DNA of 30,220 bases. Source: a virus (lineage: Duplodnaviria > Caudoviricetes). The notes below the pieces were generated by a model. It was given only the letters and a program-made list of their open reading frames with translations, was not told where the DNA came from and searched no databases. Made by a program: the position numbers and the translations under genes. The stretch lies in IMG/VR virus record IMGVR_UViG_3300017988_000514, positions 1 through 30,220 of that record; one strand, given 5' to 3'. Of this stretch, positions 1,914 to 9,761 are shown in pieces; position 1 is the stretch's first letter; each line of letters starts with the position of its first letter.

Positions 1914-2390
1914 TTATGCTTGAAGATGCGCCTGAAGGAACCACAAATCCTTGTCAGCCTGACGAACTAACTCAATAAACACATCAGCGGAGGCTTGGTC
2001 GTTATGGCTGAGGCACCCTTCAATGGCTGTTCGCATGGCATTTGCAGCTTGCCCAAGGCGTGTAGAAAGAGCTAGGAGGTGGTCTGAGCCCCTTACAGTG
2101 TCCATGGGATACTCTGGGATGGTGGACTTCGCTGCAACCTGTCTCACCGTGCCCTCAGCCACCCCACCTAAAGCCGTAATCCGTTCTGCTATAAGGTCAC
2201 TGGCGTCTTCCAGATGTTTGGCTATTTCATCAAATAGGAGGTGTAGCTCATAAAAAGCCATCCCCTTGATGTTCCAATGAGCCTGCTTAGCCTGAGTTTT
2301 TAGGTCAATGGTGTCTGCCAAACGGTCGTTTAGTAGAGTTACAAGTTGAGTTCGGCTGCTCTCGGGTATATCGACTGACGTTGGAAACAT
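1914..2390 (-). CDS. dps: Dps-family mini-ferritin (DNA starvation/stationary-phase protection protein)
   Basis: Dps signatures KQAHWNIKGMAFYELHLLFDE and DLIAERITALGG, plus C-terminal DKDLWFLQAHL. The ferroxidase His/His/Asp/Glu residues are present. 158 aa, GAGGG SD. Confidence 0.95.
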   Translation of the reverse strand: MFPTSVDIPESSRTQLVTLLNDRLADTIDLKTQAKQAHWNIKGMAFYELHLLFDEIAKHLEDASDLIAERITALGGVAEGTVRQVAAKSTIPEYPMDTVRGSDHLLALSTRLGQAANAMRTAIEGCLSHNDQASADVFIELVRQADKDLWFLQAHLQA

Positions 2391-3790: not shown

Positions 3791-5722
3791 TTAGCCCTCT
3801 TTGGTTGGGGATACACGGGTGATTCGGTATCTCATATTATTAATACTGTCCGCTCCCCATCCATCGGGGTTTGAGTCAATGTTATCTTTCAATTCTGCCA
3901 AACTGTTGAATGTTTCCGCGTAATCCCCATTTCGCGTAAACAAATGAACCATCCTACGAGAAGGTACCCCTCGGTGTTCCCCCTCACCGGCTGGTATGTA
4001 AGCAATCGGTAGCCCCCGATAACGATGGGTGTATGGTTGGCCTTCCTTGCTTCTAAGATAAGCATCCACTGCCGCTGCCTCTTTGGTGTTATTACTGGCC
4101 GCTTCACAGATTTGACGAATTTGATCCCCAGATTGTTGTAACAGTTTGATTACCCCGTTATGGTAATTGCCAGAGTTTTTTACCACATTTTTCTGTAGCT
4201 CTTCCCAAGTGACCCAAACAAGTCCGTCTGTTTCCTCATGAAATTGTAGGTTACTGGAGCCCCCCGCCATTGGGTTCAATTCAAACTCCGTAGGTACCAG
4301 TCCAAGGAAGTTGAAATACTTGAACTTTCCATCCGTAAACACATAGGCGGGGACGAGCCGAATACTTCCTTGATACCCTGTTTCCTCCGCCATCTCTTCT
4401 TTGGCACTTTCAGCCGGGGACATTCCCGGTTGAATAGCTCCTCCGATAGTTCCGAAACAATCCCCCTGATTCACTTCAGGGCTACGCCACGCCAAACAAA
4501 TGCGTCCGGTGGTGGTACATATAGGAAGGATGCCCGACGCTGCTCCTCCCGCCCCAACCCAATATCCTTTCTCATCTTCTCGAAAGGCCCTTTTAGATGA
4601 CGTTTTCTCTTTATCCTGTTGTTGCTCATTCTTTTCATCATCTGGTTTCAGATCAGTTTCGGGGTTGGACTCAGTTTCTGAGGGTTCAATGACCTCATTT
4701 CCCTGCTCATCCACTGCTTCGGCCTTATCCGAGCTTTCAGGGACATTTTCTTTGGAAAGGATTGACCAGTTTGTGTAGATAGTTGGAACGGGGTAGTTGC
4801 CTTCTTTTAACTCTGCCACAGAAGGAAAGTCTGCAAAGGTAACGCAACGACCGTCCGGGAATTTAACAACCCACTCCTTCTTTGAGTTGGAATAGATAGC
4901 CATATCATCCCCAATAGTGGCATAGGGAGAATAGGCTTCATCCCCAACAAAAATACTCTTAGGGATTCCCTCAGCATTTGTCGTCTTCATCTCTACGTCA
5001 TTATCAAACTTAATGGTAGGGGTGAATTCAGGAACTCGTGAACCTTTCTTCTTGTAAATTGCGTTGAGCAGGTTATTCTTGAAACCAGTCCCACTTAAAG
5101 GGATCGTTCCCCGAGGGTTCCCCATCATGTCATATACGATGATGTACATAGGATTGGGTTGAGACTTCAAACTACGGCTGCGGAAATTACGAATGACGCT
5201 CCGTGCATCGTTGACTGTAGTTTTAGACGGTTTTTCATAAGTAAGTTCCAAGTGACGTTGTACAGGGGGTCGTTTAATGGTTTTTCCTGATGCCGTAACT
5301 ACTTTACTGTAAACTTCATTAACAAAGTGGGGATCAATCCGAAACGTACCCTCGAAAACCTTTACTGTGGGGTCTTTACTGATGGCTGACAGGGCTTTAT
5401 CACTATCCGATTCACCAGTAATCCCTTTAAAACACATCAATGCTGCTGCATAGATTTTTACAATAATGCTTTCCTCAAAATTCAAACTTAGCATAAATGC
5501 GGACATTTCATCTAATAACGCGTGGACCGCTTCCGCAACCAACTCACTCATCGTGGAGGGTTTATCCTCAACCAGCGGGAACTTCAATGAAAACACAGTA
5601 AAGTTGGGAATTCCAAGGTCTAAGGTAATCACTGCATAGGGTCTGGCGTCACGCACAACCGTGATAGAAAGGCCACCAGTGGCAGGTGAAAGATAGGCGT
5701 TTTTGAGAGTCTCTAAATTCAT
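3791..5722 (-). CDS. Modular 643-aa protein containing a Nudix hydrolase domain
   Basis: Nudix-box-like GGAIQPGMSPAESAKEEMAEETGY (about 4373-4444), preceded by AASGILPICTTTGRICLAWRS and followed by ETDGLVWVTWEEL. An acidic linker precedes the domain. Confidence 0.85.
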   Translation of the reverse strand: MNLETLKNAYLSPATGGLSITVVRDARPYAVITLDLGIPNFTVFSLKFPLVEDKPSTMSELVAEAVHALLDEMSAFMLSLNFEESIIVKIYAAALMCFKGITGESDSDKALSAISKDPTVKVFEGTFRIDPHFVNEVYSKVVTASGKTIKRPPVQRHLELTYEKPSKTTVNDARSVIRNFRSRSLKSQPNPMYIIVYDMMGNPRGTIPLSGTGFKNNLLNAIYKKKGSRVPEFTPTIKFDNDVEMKTTNAEGIPKSIFVGDEAYSPYATIGDDMAIYSNSKKEWVVKFPDGRCVTFADFPSVAELKEGNYPVPTIYTNWSILSKENVPESSDKAEAVDEQGNEVIEPSETESNPETDLKPDDEKNEQQQDKEKTSSKRAFREDEKGYWVGAGGAASGILPICTTTGRICLAWRSPEVNQGDCFGTIGGAIQPGMSPAESAKEEMAEETGYQGSIRLVPAYVFTDGKFKYFNFLGLVPTEFELNPMAGGSSNLQFHEETDGLVWVTWEELQKNVVKNSGNYHNGVIKLLQQSGDQIRQICEAASNNTKEAAAVDAYLRSKEGQPYTHRYRGLPIAYIPAGEGEHRGVPSRRMVHLFTRNGDYAETFNSLAELKDNIDSNPDGWGADSINNMRYRITRVSPTKEG

Positions 5723-5809
5723 GGGTATTCTTATTCTTATGATGATATAGGGTTATTGAGCTACCCAACTTGAAGGAACCCTACCTTCAAACCTGCCTCC
5801 AACCCCTAT

Positions 5810-5829
5810 CTATTAAAGGAATCGGTAGT
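5810..5829 (-). promoter_or_regulatory. Candidate phage late-promoter motif, copy C (ACTACCGATTCCTTTAATAG)
   Basis: Copy of the shared motif upstream of the 643-aa gene, where minus-strand transcription would have to restart after the plus-strand island. Confidence 0.55.
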
Positions 5830-5845
5830 TTTCTAATAACCTACT

Positions 5846-5880
5846 CCTTGACCTCCGTGACACGTCACGGGGGTTGAAGG
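5846..5880. repeat. Inverted repeat / hairpin 1
   Basis: Core CCGTGAC-AC-GTCACGG (5855-5870), extendable through CCTTGACCT/GGGTTGAAGG with G-U pairs and a bulge. Confidence 0.75.
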
Positions 5881-5881
5881 C

Positions 5882-5916
5882 TATTTGGTGCCGAAGCCCC
5901 TCTTCGGCACCAAATA
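5882..5916. repeat. Perfect 15-bp inverted repeat / hairpin 2
   Basis: TATTTGGTGCCGAAG-cccct-CTTCGGCACCAAATA; no T-tract follows it on either strand. Confidence 0.9.
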
Positions 5917-5928
5917 AAGCTCACCAAG

Positions 5929-5963
5929 TGTCACTTATGCAACTTATGTCACTTATGTCACTT
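5929..5963. repeat. Tandem 9-bp direct repeats, four copies (TGTCACTTA consensus)
   Basis: tgtcactta-tgcaactta-tgtcactta-tgtcactt, followed by the AT-rich tract ttcaaataaatttaaat. Confidence 0.85.
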
Positions 5964-5993
5964 CCTCTAGTTCAAATAAATTTAAATCGGGGC

Positions 5994-6021
5994 TTGCAAA
6001 TCTGTACATCAGTGGTATTAT
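5994..6021 (+). promoter_or_regulatory. Sigma70-type promoter with extended -10 for the 6069 ORF
   Basis: TTGCAA (5994-5999), 16 nt spacer, TATTAT (6016-6021) preceded by TGG. Confidence 0.65.
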
Positions 6022-6068
6022 GTGTTCAGAAAGAATGTTCCAAGAAAAAATTTAGAAGAGGCTCAAGT

Positions 6069-6587
6069 ATGAATCAACGTGAGTTTTTTACTGCTATAGC
6101 GGGAGCAACTGGATTTGCACTCATTGCCCCCAAACTTTTTTCGACTTCAACCGGACGACCCGGTGAAGTGGAGATGCCCACTCTTAATCAGATTTGTGAT
6201 GGGTTTAGTACTATTCACAAAGAAGGTTTAGCAGTGAGGCATGTCTGGGTTCATGCAGATGACCTTCGGAAATTTAGAAAAACCATGGAACCCGCCTACC
6301 CCGAGGGGAGAGAAGACCGCGACCATCTCTGGGGAGCTTACATCAACCCCATACCCGCAAATCAAAAGCGTGGGACCGTATGGCTTCAAAGTGCTGTGAA
6401 GAATGAAAAAGTCCTTGCAATTAGAGTCAATGGGAAACAGGCAGCATCTATTTATACTCTCACAGTTGACCTCAATGGAACACCCCGCCGCCGAAATGTC
6501 CATATAACTAAAGAACCCCACGATCCCCACTTTTGGGCAGTGGATGATCTGATGCCACGTGCCGCAAAACCATTGAAAAATGGGTAA
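6069..6587 (+). CDS. 172-aa protein: Tat-like N-terminal signal/anchor plus a putative major-capsid-protein-like fragment
   Basis: The likely start is ATG 6069 with GAGG SD at 6058-6061 (the track's start at 5874 runs through hairpins and repeats). N-terminus MNQREFFTAIAGATGFALIAP. The core ICDGFSTIHKEGLAVRHVWVHADDLRKF...HLWGAYI...GTVWL recalls HK97-fold capsid segments. The ORF is well supported; the product call is tentative. Confidence 0.7.
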   Translation: MNQREFFTAIAGATGFALIAPKLFSTSTGRPGEVEMPTLNQICDGFSTIHKEGLAVRHVWVHADDLRKFRKTMEPAYPEGREDRDHLWGAYINPIPANQKRGTVWLQSAVKNEKVLAIRVNGKQAASIYTLTVDLNGTPRRRNVHITKEPHDPHFWAVDDLMPRAAKPLKNG

Positions 6588-6600
6588 AATGTGGTATTAT
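6573..6600 (+). promoter_or_regulatory. Sigma70-type promoter with extended -10 driving the CRISPR mini-array
   Basis: TTGAAA (6573-6578), 16 nt spacer, TATTAT (6595-6600) preceded by TGG. It shares GTGGTATTAT and the spacing with the promoter at 5994-6021. Confidence 0.65.
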
Positions 6601-6676
6601 AGGGGTGTGAAAGGCCAGTTTTTCTTGTTTATTTTTAGTGTAATGCCCATAGATACAGGGGTTTGCTAGTAAATGA

Positions 6677-6909
6677 CCTGTGGTTATAGTGGATTTGTCG
6701 TATGAATCCAACATGCCGTTGAACGCGACTGGAATGAGCACCCTGTGGTTATAGTGGATTTGTCGTATGAATCCAACTCAATCACGTTGAGCACGATCGC
6801 TGGCCCGCCTGTGGTTATAGTGGATTTGTCGTATGAATCCAACACATCCCCATTGATGGCATCGGGCATACCTCCTGTGGTTATAGTGGATTTGTCGTAT
6901 GAATCCAAT
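6677..6909 (+). CRISPR. CRISPR mini-array with 4 repeats and 3 spacers; no cas genes in the window
   Basis: 36-nt repeat CCTGTGGTTATAGTGGATTTGTCGTATGAATCCAAC at 6677-6712, 6742-6777, 6808-6843 and 6874-6909 (last base C>T in copy 4). Unique spacers at 6713-6741 (29 nt), 6778-6807 (30 nt) and 6844-6873 (30 nt). Orientation is inferred from the upstream promoter, the AT-rich leader and the variant last repeat. Confidence 0.92.
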
Positions 6910-6960
6910 ATTGGTGGTATCCAAGTTGAGGATTTGTTTATCGGAATAAAAGACCTTCGT

Positions 6961-6995
6961 ACAAGACGAGATCGAACGCGACGAGACACGACAAG
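6961..6995. repeat. Degenerate pentanucleotide tandem repeat (7 units)
   Basis: ACAAG ACGAG ATCGA ACGCG ACGAG ACACG ACAAG. Confidence 0.65.
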
Positions 6996-7046: not shown

Positions 7047-9761
7047 TTACTCATACTCATAGGACTGAAGAATGTCACTTCCCCCAATTTCCCATACAAG
7101 GTCCTGACGGGGCGCAAGCAATCCCATTGGATGGTTGATATCCCAGTTCGCCACTTCCCCTGTTACGGTGTTGGTTGTATCAATAACCTGAATCCAACTA
7201 TCCGAATTTGTCAGATAGTTGGAACCAATAAATCGCCACACGATGGAACCATCATAGGTTGGAACAGTTGAAGATTGACTAAATCCAATTCGAGCCGTTG
7301 CAACACTTTCCAACTGGGTTTCCGAGTTATAGTTACTGTGAACAATGGACATGGTGATACTCGTTGAAGTAAACGAGGTGACTAACAAAGTGAGTCCATT
7401 TAAGAAGGTAGCGTATGTGAAACCCAACAAAGCAATTAGGCTGGTGTTAGCCACAAGACCCATACCTGTAGTGCTATTTACGGCCAAAGTAAGTTGGTTG
7501 TTGAGAATTTGAACTGCCCCATAACTAGTCCCCACCGTAGCAATGGGAGAGGTGATTCCCGGAGTGGGTGGAGATTGGGGAGGAGACTGAGGAGATGATC
7601 CCGACGAGGCAATCTGAAGACTACCATAGTTGTCGATCATAAATTGTCCTGTGTAAAATGGCGTGCTGGGAGCCCACTGCCGGGTACCAAAAACGTACAA
7701 CCCATTAGCTGCTTGATAATACGCTTGATAGATAGAAGGTGAGGGTAGTGGTGTCCAATACATTTGATCTGTATCCGCAAGGGGGTCTTGATTGGTGTTT
7801 TCTTGAAGGGCTCGGTATAACTGCCAACCACCCGGAGTCCACATCCCTGCATTAAAGTTACCATCCTCACCCCAAAATCGGCCACGTACAAGGGTACCGA
7901 GAGGATATGCTGTAGAAGCACTCCACACCTGTGGAGAAACAGTTAGCTGCTGCCAAACAGAGGGAAGAATCGGGCTAAGCATTCGGCGACCGTAAGAAGA
8001 TAAAGTAGTGGTGGGGTTGTTTACATCAAAAATAGGAGCCTGATACAACATCGGATTGAAGGGTGGTTCCTCCACCTGTTGAACAATGATTTGCAAAATG
8101 TCATCAATACCACCTGCACTTATCGTTCCATCTGCCGTGGCATTTGGAATAGCCTGTGAAACAATAATAGCAGTGTTCCCCCCAATAAGTGTGGCTGAAA
8201 CTACGGTATAGATTCCATCATTACCTGTGCTACCTGAAACTGTAGCCACTCCTGTGGCTGGTAGATATGAGATTTGATCCCCTGCAACTGTAAACGTCTT
8301 GGTACCTTGATTGACTGCTATGATTGCAAAAAGGGTACAGTTTGTATTCTGGTAGTACCCCTGATAATACCCTTGTTGTGAGGTGGGCAATGCAGCGTAG
8401 GCCGCGATGGTAATCTGCTGTGTACCAATATTGATCCACACCAAAGAGGTTGGGGGACTTAAAGGGGGACTGGACAGACCATCCATTGTTGTACCTTGAA
8501 GAATGGGGTTCCATGTTGGGAGAATAGTGCCTGTTATCCCACTTGTAAGAGCCAGTTGAATATTTCCATTTGAGTCTTGGATTATTGTACCGGCTAAAAT
8601 CTCTGTGAGTGGAATCCACCCAACTATAGGCGGTTGAGTAAGAACATAAGCAACAAGAGAGTAGTAACCCATTTGCTGCTTTGTTAAAGTGTTTAACTGA
8701 AACTGTGTCAGATAACGGGGGCTCAAAAAACAGTCCACATTTTCGTTAGAACCAAATACAGCGGTAAATTCCAAACCCACATGGGCTGGCTTTGCTAAAT
8801 CAATAGCACCATAAAGGGTGTTGGTGATTTGTTGCAACTCAGTCAAGCTCTCCACATCTGTGAAGGGGTCTGAACCTCCCACATTAACACTCACTAACAC
8901 CGTGTTACGGTCGCTTTGATCATAGAACCCACCGGGTACAATTTGTTTGTATAGCTCCTCTACAACAATGTTCTTGCCTGTGTAAGCATAGATGACATCT
9001 TGAATAGATTGAGGAGTTGCCCCTTCTTGATACGCCCCTAGAAGGTCTACCAGCATGTCACGGTACCCCACAGGATAGGTCAATGGGGCGGGAGCAGGAC
9101 CAGAATTCGTCCATACCACTGACCCATCAGTAGTTGTTTCTCCAAGAGAAAGAGCCCATGATGGTTCTTGTAATCCTGTTTGGCCGGGGGTGGTAGCTAC
9201 TTGAAGGTTTCCATTACTATCAAGAACAACCGCACGGAGGAAAGCTCCGGTGTTTGCTTTCCAACCACCAAAAGAAGATGCTCCAAAGTCCCCCATGTCA
9301 AACTGGGAAGACTGTTGAAAAATCCCGGTGATGTACAAAGGGGCTGCGTACTGCCGTTTGACATCAGCCGGGGTCAGGTAGGTTGGGTTCTTTGCAACAA
9401 TGTCGTATGAGTACATATACTCGATACGAGCCAACTCCATGGAAATCGCACGAAGGAAGGCACCCCAGATGCTCTGGTCATTTCGCGTGGTGTAGTAGTT
9501 TGCCAACGCGTTGATGAGCGATTGAAACCGGGCGTCTTCATATAACAAGAGGTCTTCCCGACTGCGTAAATAGAATTGATCCTCCTGTGTAATGACAGGC
9601 ATCTGTACCCAGACCAAGGCATTCTGGTCAGGCTCCTGATTCAGTGAGCCCAAGGTATCTACGCAGATGTAGGTAAACCTACCATATTGCACTGAATCGA
9701 GATAGCTGTAGGTTACGGTAGCTGACCATACTCCTCGTGGATTATAAAGAGGCGATGCCAT
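7047..9761 (-). CDS. Baseplate wedge protein, gpI/gp7-like, carrying Trp-rich carbohydrate-binding-like modules (904 aa)
   Basis: Lies directly downstream of the J-like gene. IDLAKPAHVGLEF contains the KPAH motif typical of gpI-like proteins. Several W...DSNG..Q....G..G...P.W.......T.DG..VW repeats. Confidence 0.7.
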   Translation of the reverse strand: MASPLYNPRGVWSATVTYSYLDSVQYGRFTYICVDTLGSLNQEPDQNALVWVQMPVITQEDQFYLRSREDLLLYEDARFQSLINALANYYTTRNDQSIWGAFLRAISMELARIEYMYSYDIVAKNPTYLTPADVKRQYAAPLYITGIFQQSSQFDMGDFGASSFGGWKANTGAFLRAVVLDSNGNLQVATTPGQTGLQEPSWALSLGETTTDGSVVWTNSGPAPAPLTYPVGYRDMLVDLLGAYQEGATPQSIQDVIYAYTGKNIVVEELYKQIVPGGFYDQSDRNTVLVSVNVGGSDPFTDVESLTELQQITNTLYGAIDLAKPAHVGLEFTAVFGSNENVDCFLSPRYLTQFQLNTLTKQQMGYYSLVAYVLTQPPIVGWIPLTEILAGTIIQDSNGNIQLALTSGITGTILPTWNPILQGTTMDGLSSPPLSPPTSLVWINIGTQQITIAAYAALPTSQQGYYQGYYQNTNCTLFAIIAVNQGTKTFTVAGDQISYLPATGVATVSGSTGNDGIYTVVSATLIGGNTAIIVSQAIPNATADGTISAGGIDDILQIIVQQVEEPPFNPMLYQAPIFDVNNPTTTLSSYGRRMLSPILPSVWQQLTVSPQVWSASTAYPLGTLVRGRFWGEDGNFNAGMWTPGGWQLYRALQENTNQDPLADTDQMYWTPLPSPSIYQAYYQAANGLYVFGTRQWAPSTPFYTGQFMIDNYGSLQIASSGSSPQSPPQSPPTPGITSPIATVGTSYGAVQILNNQLTLAVNSTTGMGLVANTSLIALLGFTYATFLNGLTLLVTSFTSTSITMSIVHSNYNSETQLESVATARIGFSQSSTVPTYDGSIVWRFIGSNYLTNSDSWIQVIDTTNTVTGEVANWDINHPMGLLAPRQDLVWEIGGSDILQSYEYE

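What the first reader, a model, noticed from the sequence alone, without database searches (positions are those of the whole stretch)
5994..6995. Self-contained plus-strand cassette: promoter, capsid-like membrane/Tat protein, twin promoter, Cas-less CRISPR mini-array
Seen: this is the only plus-strand unit in 30 kb of minus-strand structural genes. The ORF and the array each have a promoter with the same architecture (TTGnAA-16 nt-TATTAT, both ending GTGGTATTAT), unlike the motif found before the structural genes. No cas gene is adjacent. Inference: a co-regulated, host-RNAP-driven early module for counter-defence or competition between phages. It would pair guide RNAs, borrowing a host or distant phage effector, with a small accessory protein. 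This is the best candidate for an undescribed system in the window.
Basis: partly seen in the sequence, partly recalled or inferred. Interest (0 to 1): 0.85.

Follow-up and report, generated by a model that had tools for sequence, protein, structure and literature searches.

The report
Phage CRISPR mini-array targeting its host
A large bacterial virus carries a three-spacer CRISPR array, one spacer of which exactly matches a methionine-synthesis gene of an Acidobacterium, its likely host; the guides likely load onto a non-cutting Cas12m-like protein, seen beside a similar repeat in another phage but not in this fragment, and would turn host genes down rather than cut them.

Summary
In detail: four 36-nt repeats, three 29-30-nt spacers, a 172-aa ORF and twin promoter-like sites, with no cas gene in a contig that is only about 10% of a jumbo-type phage.

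Spacer 2 matches 30/30 a chromosomal Acidobacteriaceae gene (homocysteine methyltransferase/MTHFR) in one genome and in contigs of three wetland runs. No spacer matched any related phage examined. One strain has a different leader-end spacer, so the array is likely still acquiring.

The only related repeat found (27/36 identical) lies in another phage contig, directly behind an 856-aa Cas12m-like (V-U1) protein lacking the first RuvC aspartate, the zinc finger and the third aspartate. One spacer there matches the start of an Acidobacteriaceae restriction-modification gene.

The ORF is not the array's partner: it resembles part of the clade's major capsid protein, its one homologue sits in a relative with no array, the promoter motif recurs elsewhere in relatives, and a variant deletes the ORF's start but keeps the array.

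Best reading (about 50%): a satellite array for a phage-borne, nuclease-dead type V effector that silences host genes. The effector link is indirect, and transcription is not shown.

The parts
5994..6021 (+). Promoter-like site 1 (TTGCAA-16-TATTAT), clade-type motif
   Evidence: look-alikes in relatives G599 and G601; deleted in an X1 variant; transcription not shown
6069..6587 (+). ORF172: degenerate Tat-like start (QR instead of RR) plus a region like part of the HK97-fold capsid protein; accessory, not shown to act with the array
6573..6600 (+). Promoter-like site 2 (TTGAAA-16-TATTAT), overlapping the ORF's last codons; likely drives the array
6601..6676 (+). Leader; the spacer next to it differs between strains
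6677..6712 (+). Repeat 1 (36 nt, 3' hairpin, ends in AC)
6713..6741 (+). Spacer 1 (29 nt); target unconfirmed; replaced by another spacer in run X3
6742..6777 (+). Repeat 2
6778..6807 (+). Spacer 2 (30 nt); 30/30 to an Acidobacteriaceae homocysteine S-methyltransferase/MTHFR gene; a plus-strand guide would be complementary to the coding strand
6808..6843 (+). Repeat 3
6844..6873 (+). Spacer 3 (30 nt); target unconfirmed
6874..6909 (+). Repeat 4 (terminal; last base changed), marking the trailer end
3791..5722 (-). Flanking conserved gene (643 aa, NUDIX domain); borders the insertion site
7047..9761 (-). Flanking conserved gene (904 aa, next to the baseplate-J gene); borders the insertion site

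Best explanation
This is a real CRISPR mini-array in a jumbo-type phage, one of whose spacers exactly matches an Acidobacteriaceae chromosomal gene, and its guides are likely loaded onto a predicted nuclease-dead Cas12m-like protein encoded elsewhere, which would bind host DNA and lower transcription without cutting. Shown: the array, spacer turnover at the leader end, the 30/30 host match, and a 27/36-identical repeat sitting behind a RuvC-degenerate V-U1-like gene in another phage. Inferred: that promoter 2 makes pre-crRNA; that the effector lies in the roughly 90% of this genome not held, or in a co-infecting phage; that binding inside the methyltransferase/MTHFR gene blocks transcription; and that this helps the phage, by lowering methionine/SAM for SAM-dependent defences or by sparing methylene-THF for thymidylate (established pathways, untested here). 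ORF172 is a separate capsid-derived accessory protein.
For: Spacer 2 is 30/30 in L009/G001 and 27/30, 27/30, 26/30 in orthologues, where the printed differences leave the peptide the same or nearly so; a chance 30/30 match in the whole genome collection is expected about 3e-5 times. The same site with the same flanks lies on non-phage contigs in runs X1, X2, X3. The orthologue in L008 passes the NCBIfam cut-off for the bifunctional enzyme. L125 holds 13 repeats of 36 nt with 30-nt spacers, 27/36 identical to ours; 13 positions were fixed by my search and 14 of the other 23 match (p about 7e-4). It was the only multi-copy locus of 120 and of 23. Its adjacent 856-aa protein and a 57%-identical homologue both hit Cas12u1 best (E 1.3e-5). 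They align along their length with L228, which hits Cas12u1 at 4e-29 and solved Cas12m chains at 1.5e-11 and 2e-7. Both lack the first RuvC Asp and end before the zinc finger and third Asp. L125 spacer 8 (27 nt) equals a 30-nt stretch less 3 internal bases at the ribosome-binding site and start of a type IIG restriction-modification gene in G399. Cas12m silences inside coding regions and has T- and C-rich PAMs (PMC11013384, passages).
Against: No effector is seen in this contig or in five related phage records, 10-74% complete, so the link rests on repeat likeness to one locus. That locus's phage (G604) is not shown to be kin: 3 protein hits to G599, one of them an HNH endonuclease. Only 1 of 3 spacers here and 1 of 12 in L125 has a convincing target. 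The two 5' flanks (CCGC; GCAA) share no PAM and neither is TTN. The target is mid-gene, not at a promoter. The AlphaFold model of the effector was unusable (mean pLDDT 35). A conserved Asp lies next to the second RuvC position, so that site is uncertain. No transcript evidence. No cas1 was found in the four phage records or in G001, so the source of new spacers is unexplained.
Confidence: 0.5

Rival explanations
1. Same non-cutting effector, but the host spacer is a tolerated by-product of acquisition. The array's selected job is to block other phages or plasmids, as known for Cas12m.
For: A non-cutting effector makes host spacers harmless. Cas12m defends against plasmids and phages by binding (PMC11013384, abstract and passages). 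13 of the 15 spacers in the two arrays have no confirmed target and could match unsampled elements; restriction-modification genes like the L125 target are often on mobile islands (own knowledge).
Against: Both confirmed targets are bacterial genes; none matched the phage collection above chance, or G599, G601, G604 and the other held loci. Spacer 2 is kept in the window and in array contigs of X2 and X3 while spacer 1 changes.
Confidence: 0.25
2. An orphan array whose effector has been lost or is supplied by the host; it is a relic or only conditionally active.
For: No effector in this contig or in related phages. A Terriglobales genome (G641) carries a full-length homologue with intact catalytic residues. 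The insertion site is a hot spot for selfish elements.
Against: Repeats 1-3 are identical and the leader-end spacer varies between strains. No related repeat in the host genomes searched. The G641 homologue has no array within 14 kb, and a cutting effector with a perfect chromosomal spacer would likely kill the host (inference).
Confidence: 0.15
3. The guides act on RNA: with an RNA-targeting effector (type III or VI), or simply as antisense RNAs against host mRNA.
For: The plus-strand guide from spacer 2 is complementary to the mRNA, as are the unconfirmed leads for spacers 1 and 3. No PAM is evident. PMC7162821 raises an RNA-interference-like mode (passage).
Against: The only related repeat sits behind a type V-like gene. 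L125 spacer 8 has the same sense as its target mRNA.
Confidence: 0.07
4. The first reader's module: ORF172 and the array form one co-regulated system, with the small protein as partner of the RNA.
For: Adjacent, same strand, matching promoter-like sites, inserted at one site that is empty in 7 of 11 related loci.
Against: The homologue lies in a relative without an array; likeness to the capsid protein and paralogues in that relative; the promoter motif is clade-wide; a variant loses the ORF start but keeps the array; the related array L125 has no ORF172 homologue on its contig.
Confidence: 0.03

Closest known systems
CRISPR-Cas subtype V-M (Cas12m, formerly V-U1)
   Same: 36-nt repeat with hairpin and terminal AC, no cas1 nearby, degenerate RuvC, best HMM hit Cas12u1 (for the L125 effector). 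Known members silence by DNA binding and occur on plasmids and some prophages (PMC10442227, PMC11013384, PMC11656645; passages).
   Different: Known Cas12m are about 600 aa, keep D-E-D, H-D-D or N-D-D triads and a zinc finger, and are described as targeting mobile elements. P0005/P0006 are about 850 aa, lack the zinc finger and third Asp, and have Thr/Lys at the first position. Confirmed targets are bacterial chromosomal genes. In this window the array stands without any effector.
Viral CRISPR mini-arrays (reviewed in PMC11656645, passages)
   Same: Short Cas-less array in a virus genome, with its own promoter-like site.
   Different: Those have repeats identical to the host's and mostly target related viruses. 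Here no host repeat match was found and the confirmed target is a host gene.
Huge-phage CRISPR arrays with chromosome-targeting spacers (PMC7162821, passages)
   Same: Compact arrays in >200-kb phages, often without interference or acquisition genes; some spacers match bacteria of the same samples; silencing proposed.
   Different: Examples named in the passages seen concern transcription and translation genes. A methionine/folate gene and a candidate dead V-U1-type effector were not among the passages read; the paper's supplements were not seen.
TldR (nuclease-dead TnpB repressors; PMC10705468, abstract)
   Same: Phage-borne, nuclease-dead TnpB-family protein guided by RNA to repress a host gene.
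   Different: TldR uses natural guide RNAs against conserved promoters and is not a CRISPR array system; here there is a true array with exchangeable spacers and a mid-gene target.

Membership tests
CRISPR array | Identical short repeats with unique spacers of even length | tested here: met
   4 x 36 nt; spacers 29, 30, 30 nt
CRISPR array | A spacer derived from foreign DNA, and polarised spacer change | tested here: met
   spacer 2 is 30/30 in G001; leader-end spacer differs in X3
Subtype V-M (Cas12m) | cas12m gene next to the array | tested here: not met
   none in the 30-kb contig; contig about 10% complete, so an effector in trans is not excluded
Subtype V-M (Cas12m) | Repeat belongs to a family linked to a V-U1-type effector | tested here: met
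   27/36 to the L125 repeat, whose neighbour hits Cas12u1; one locus only
Subtype V-M (Cas12m) | Effector of about 600 aa with zinc finger and DED/HDD/NDD triad | tested here: not met
   P0005/P0006 are 856/844 aa, with no zinc finger, no third Asp and first Asp replaced: Cas12m-like, not a typical member
Subtype V-M (Cas12m) | 5' PAM (TTN, or other T/C-rich) | tested here: inconclusive
   flanks CCGC and GCAA from two different arrays
Subtype V-M (Cas12m) | RNA-guided DNA binding without cleavage | not testable with these tools
   needs biochemistry
Host-borrowing viral mini-array | Repeat identical to a host CRISPR repeat | tested here: not met
   no exact match of 26 nt in genome contigs; none in 201 and 81 related genomes; G001 is incomplete
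Host-borrowing viral mini-array | Spacers target related viruses | tested here: not met
   10 or more mismatches in G599 and G601; no phage hit above chance; 2 spacers unassigned
Tat substrate | Twin-arginine motif passing the TIGR01409 model | tested here: not met
   ORF172 has QR and no hit; its homologue P0004 has RR and passes the cut-off
HK97-fold major capsid protein | Full-length fold | tested here: not met
   only about 70-100 residues resemble the capsid protein (hhalign 90%, E 1.7e-6; Atlas TM 0.40-0.46); no Pfam or PHROG hit
TldR | Non-CRISPR guide RNA against a conserved promoter | tested here: not met
   true array; the target is at about codon 266 of the stop-to-stop frame

The most novel reading that the evidence does not exclude
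Large phages of Acidobacteria carry an undescribed, enlarged, zinc-finger-less and fully dead Cas12m-related effector with satellite arrays, and use it as natural programmable CRISPRi against the host. Spacers taken from the host chromosome are kept because they silence methionine/SAM supply and restriction-modification genes: a reprogrammable anti-defence and metabolic-steering system.
Probability: 0.3. Interest if true: 0.85.

Novelty: new variant of a known kind. Interest (0 to 1): 0.62.

Why it matters
Host-targeting spacers in huge phages were reported with silencing proposed but not resolved in the passages read (PMC7162821). This case supplies a named host gene, a host family, and a concrete candidate effector whose sequence predicts binding without cutting, so the idea becomes testable in E. 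coli with one gene and one repeat. The effector family (two members found) is a divergent nuclease-dead Cas12 that may have a new PAM. The spacer also assigns a likely host family to an uncultured jumbo-phage clade. My literature searches listed no paper on this effector or these phages; the 2022 survey of virus-encoded CRISPR systems was not held and may cover similar proteins.

Tried and rejected
Exact repeat scans found nothing in viral or genome contigs. In metagenomes 5 of 6 loci were single chance matches and the sixth (L004) is the window itself. Rfam gave nothing. The repeat's fold is not more stable than shuffles (z -1.1), so the hairpin claim rests on its sharing with L125.

Phage and plasmid BLAST of the array gave only E 3-9 hits.

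Spacer 1: no match within 3 mismatches in 401 family genomes. An ABC-2 permease lead has 6-11 mismatches over 15 orthologues, and the gene was not found in the 5 genomes with the closest spacer-2 sites: unconfirmed. Spacer 3: 23/25 to a Granulicella sensor kinase at chance-level E: unconfirmed; it was searched within 3 mismatches only in G001 and G002 and by BLAST.

L125 spacers 1-6: no match in 22 genomes of G399's genus. 3 of the 5 hits were short matches to truncated spacers 9 and 10, treated as chance. The apparent duplication of spacer 2 in X2 was read as an assembly-graph loop. Uncovered parts in X2, X3 and X7 are not taken as absence. P0003 is a repeat-rich artefact.

AlphaFold model of P0005 was unusable, so no fold search was run. 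PDB sequence searches with P0005 and A2 were empty. Searches for more effector loci gave only L125 itself and only P0006 among proteins; P0006's DNA context could not be obtained. Earlier-findings look-ups were empty.

Full report
Observation. The window is the whole held record, a linear virus contig of 30,220 bases rated about 10% complete. Between two minus-strand genes lies a plus-strand unit: a promoter-like site at 5994-6021, a 172-aa ORF (6069-6587), a second such site at 6573-6600, a 76-nt leader, and four 36-nt repeats with spacers of 29, 30 and 30 nt. The fourth repeat has a changed last base, which marks the trailer end. The two promoter-like sites are the only two of their exact pattern in the window (0 of 300 shuffles reach two; pattern chosen after the fact). 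No cas gene was seen.

Setting. The flanking 904-aa gene found 11 related viral loci, one on a 231-kb contig rated 74% complete (G599), so this is a jumbo-type phage. At the same site 7 of 11 loci are empty, one holds a GIY-YIG endonuclease, and three hold a 412-aa ORF that I read as a homing endonuclease (not family-scanned). None of the 17 loci holds an array. The unit is an accessory insertion at a hot spot.

The ORF. Among 1.84 billion representatives there were 3 hits: itself, a repeat-rich artefact, and one true homologue, P0004, 36% identical over residues 1-117. P0004 is encoded in G599, about 13 kb from the syntenic site. My repeat scan over all 231 kb of G599, in 12 stretches, found no CRISPR-like array. 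A profile of the two proteins matches residues 170-241 of G599's HK97-fold major capsid protein (probability 90%, E 1.7e-6), and the Atlas's best structure rows are mostly capsid proteins at TM 0.40-0.46. G599 has further short ORFs with Tat-like starts or weak profile hits. P0004 passes the Tat model; ORF172, with QR for RR, does not. A relaxed form of the promoter motif occurs 5 times in G599 and 3 times in G601, one of them just downstream of P0004 with no array behind it. In run X1 a contig joint removes 5964-6107, that is promoter 1 and the ORF's first 13 codons, at depth 5.5 against 6.65 for the intact form (one contig each). The ORF is therefore most likely a capsid-derived accessory protein and not the array's partner.

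The spacers. Laying four public runs showed non-phage contigs in X1, X2 and X3 (wetland metagenomes, three coded studies) that carry spacer 2 exactly, with the same loose flanks (depth 17.6 and 22.5 for the two whose rows were shown). A degenerate scan of 185,579 genomes gave 2 loci, both uncultured Acidobacteriaceae. L009 matches 30/30, with the same flanks, and L008 27/30. The gene is the bifunctional homocysteine S-methyltransferase/MTHFR (L008 orthologue, NF006396 over cut-off). A plus-strand guide would pair with the coding strand in mid-gene. Spacers 1 and 3 have only unconfirmed leads, both also antisense to Acidobacteriaceae genes. No spacer matched related phages. In X3 a contig runs from the ORF through the leader and repeat 1 into a different first spacer and on into repeat 2, as expected for leader-end acquisition. 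X1 also holds a contig with the last 30 bases of the repeat behind at least 255 unrelated bases, possibly a second array; it could not be followed.

The repeat family. The repeat was not found in host genomes. A gapped hairpin pattern gave 120 viral loci from 53 of 64 parts of the collection (DNA flanks fetched in full for 80); only L125 had multiple copies, and a tighter pattern over the collection again gave only that array among 23 loci. L125 has 13 repeats of 36 nt, 27/36 identical to ours, with 30-nt spacers, directly behind an 856-aa ORF, P0005. P0005 and its 57%-identical homologue P0006 hit Cas12u1 best in PADLOC (E 1.3e-5), and the Atlas places P0005 with TnpB/Cas12f-like clusters. 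One of 301 Terriglobales-level genomes held a homologue, L228, which hits Cas12u1 at 4e-29 and solved Cas12m chains and keeps D, E, D and the zinc finger. Against it, P0005 and P0006 have Thr and Lys for the first Asp, Lys aligned to the Glu with a conserved Asp beside it, and both end before the zinc finger and third Asp. L125 spacer 8 is 27 nt and equals, less three internal bases, 30 nt over the ribosome-binding site and start of a type IIG restriction-modification gene in G399; G397 has one more mismatch. The other 11 spacers have no convincing target. L125's phage is not shown to be kin to ours, and no effector was found in five relatives.

Mechanism. Most likely promoter 2 makes a pre-crRNA that a P0005-type protein, encoded in the missing part of this genome or by a co-infecting phage, processes and uses to bind DNA without cutting. 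Cas12m proteins process their own crRNA, need no tracrRNA, have T- and C-rich PAMs and silence within coding regions (PMC11013384, passages; PMC10442227, passages). A non-cutting effector explains why a perfect chromosomal spacer can persist. Silencing this gene could lower methionine and SAM, which phage T3 attacks to defeat type I restriction and BREX (10.1101/2023.02.27.530186, start of abstract in the listing), or spare methylene-THF for thymidylate (own knowledge). These benefits are inferred. Against: one linking locus, no shared PAM, 2 of 15 spacers assigned, no RNA evidence, no cas1 in the phage records or G001. The main rival, that host spacers are harmless by-products of an anti-element system, keeps about 25%.

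Known and new. Cas-less viral mini-arrays are known but usually share the host's repeat and target related viruses (PMC11656645, passages). Huge-phage arrays with chromosome-targeting spacers are known, with silencing proposed (PMC7162821, passages; supplements not seen). Phage-borne dead TnpB repressors of a host gene are known (PMC10705468, abstract). PMC12607003 (passages) mentions phage type V proteins with missing RuvC motifs without testing them. What is new here is the pairing of a repeat family, a divergent dead V-U1-like effector and named host targets in Acidobacteriaceae. Verdict: new variant of a known kind; interest 0.62.

Noticed in passing
window 6401-6422; L050:1501-1522 (G601): 22/22 identity between the inside of ORF172, where its likeness to P0004 ends, and the -35 side of a promoter-like site in a related phage. 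The ORF's tail may be a recombined piece.
   Followed up: partly
window 5929-5963 and 5882-5916: A 9-nt tandem repeat and a perfect 15-bp inverted repeat upstream of promoter 1. The X1 deletion starts at the tandem repeat, and X2 shows extra repeat-like letters there.
   Followed up: no
run X1, loose end before window 6814: A contig with the last 30 nt of the repeat behind 255 or more unrelated bases: possibly a second array of this family.
   Followed up: no
L125:6858-9428 (-) and array at about 5980-6760: Complete candidate system in a 98-kb phage contig: 856-aa dead Cas12m-like gene, leader, 13 repeats decaying at the trailer end. The protein is on 10 contigs up to 248 kb.
   Followed up: yes
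L228:6175-8364 (-) (G641): 730-aa V-U1-like protein with intact D-E-D and zinc finger but no array within 14 kb; a possible TnpB-to-Cas12m intermediate.
   Followed up: partly
L059:198-488, 748-1359, 5739-6347; L063:6922-7179 (G599): Several short ORFs with Tat-like starts or weak likeness to part of the phage's own capsid protein: a small paralogue family of unknown role.
   Followed up: partly
L125:9798-12650 (-): 950-aa helicase-plus-methyltransferase gene just upstream of the effector.
   Followed up: no
window 1914-2390 (-) and 3791-5722 (-): A Dps/ferritin-like gene and a NUDIX-domain gene among the structural genes, both conserved in relatives.
   Followed up: no
L068:10569-10758 (G601): Three imperfect repeats about 88 nt apart in a non-coding-looking stretch; not a CRISPR array by length.
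   Followed up: no
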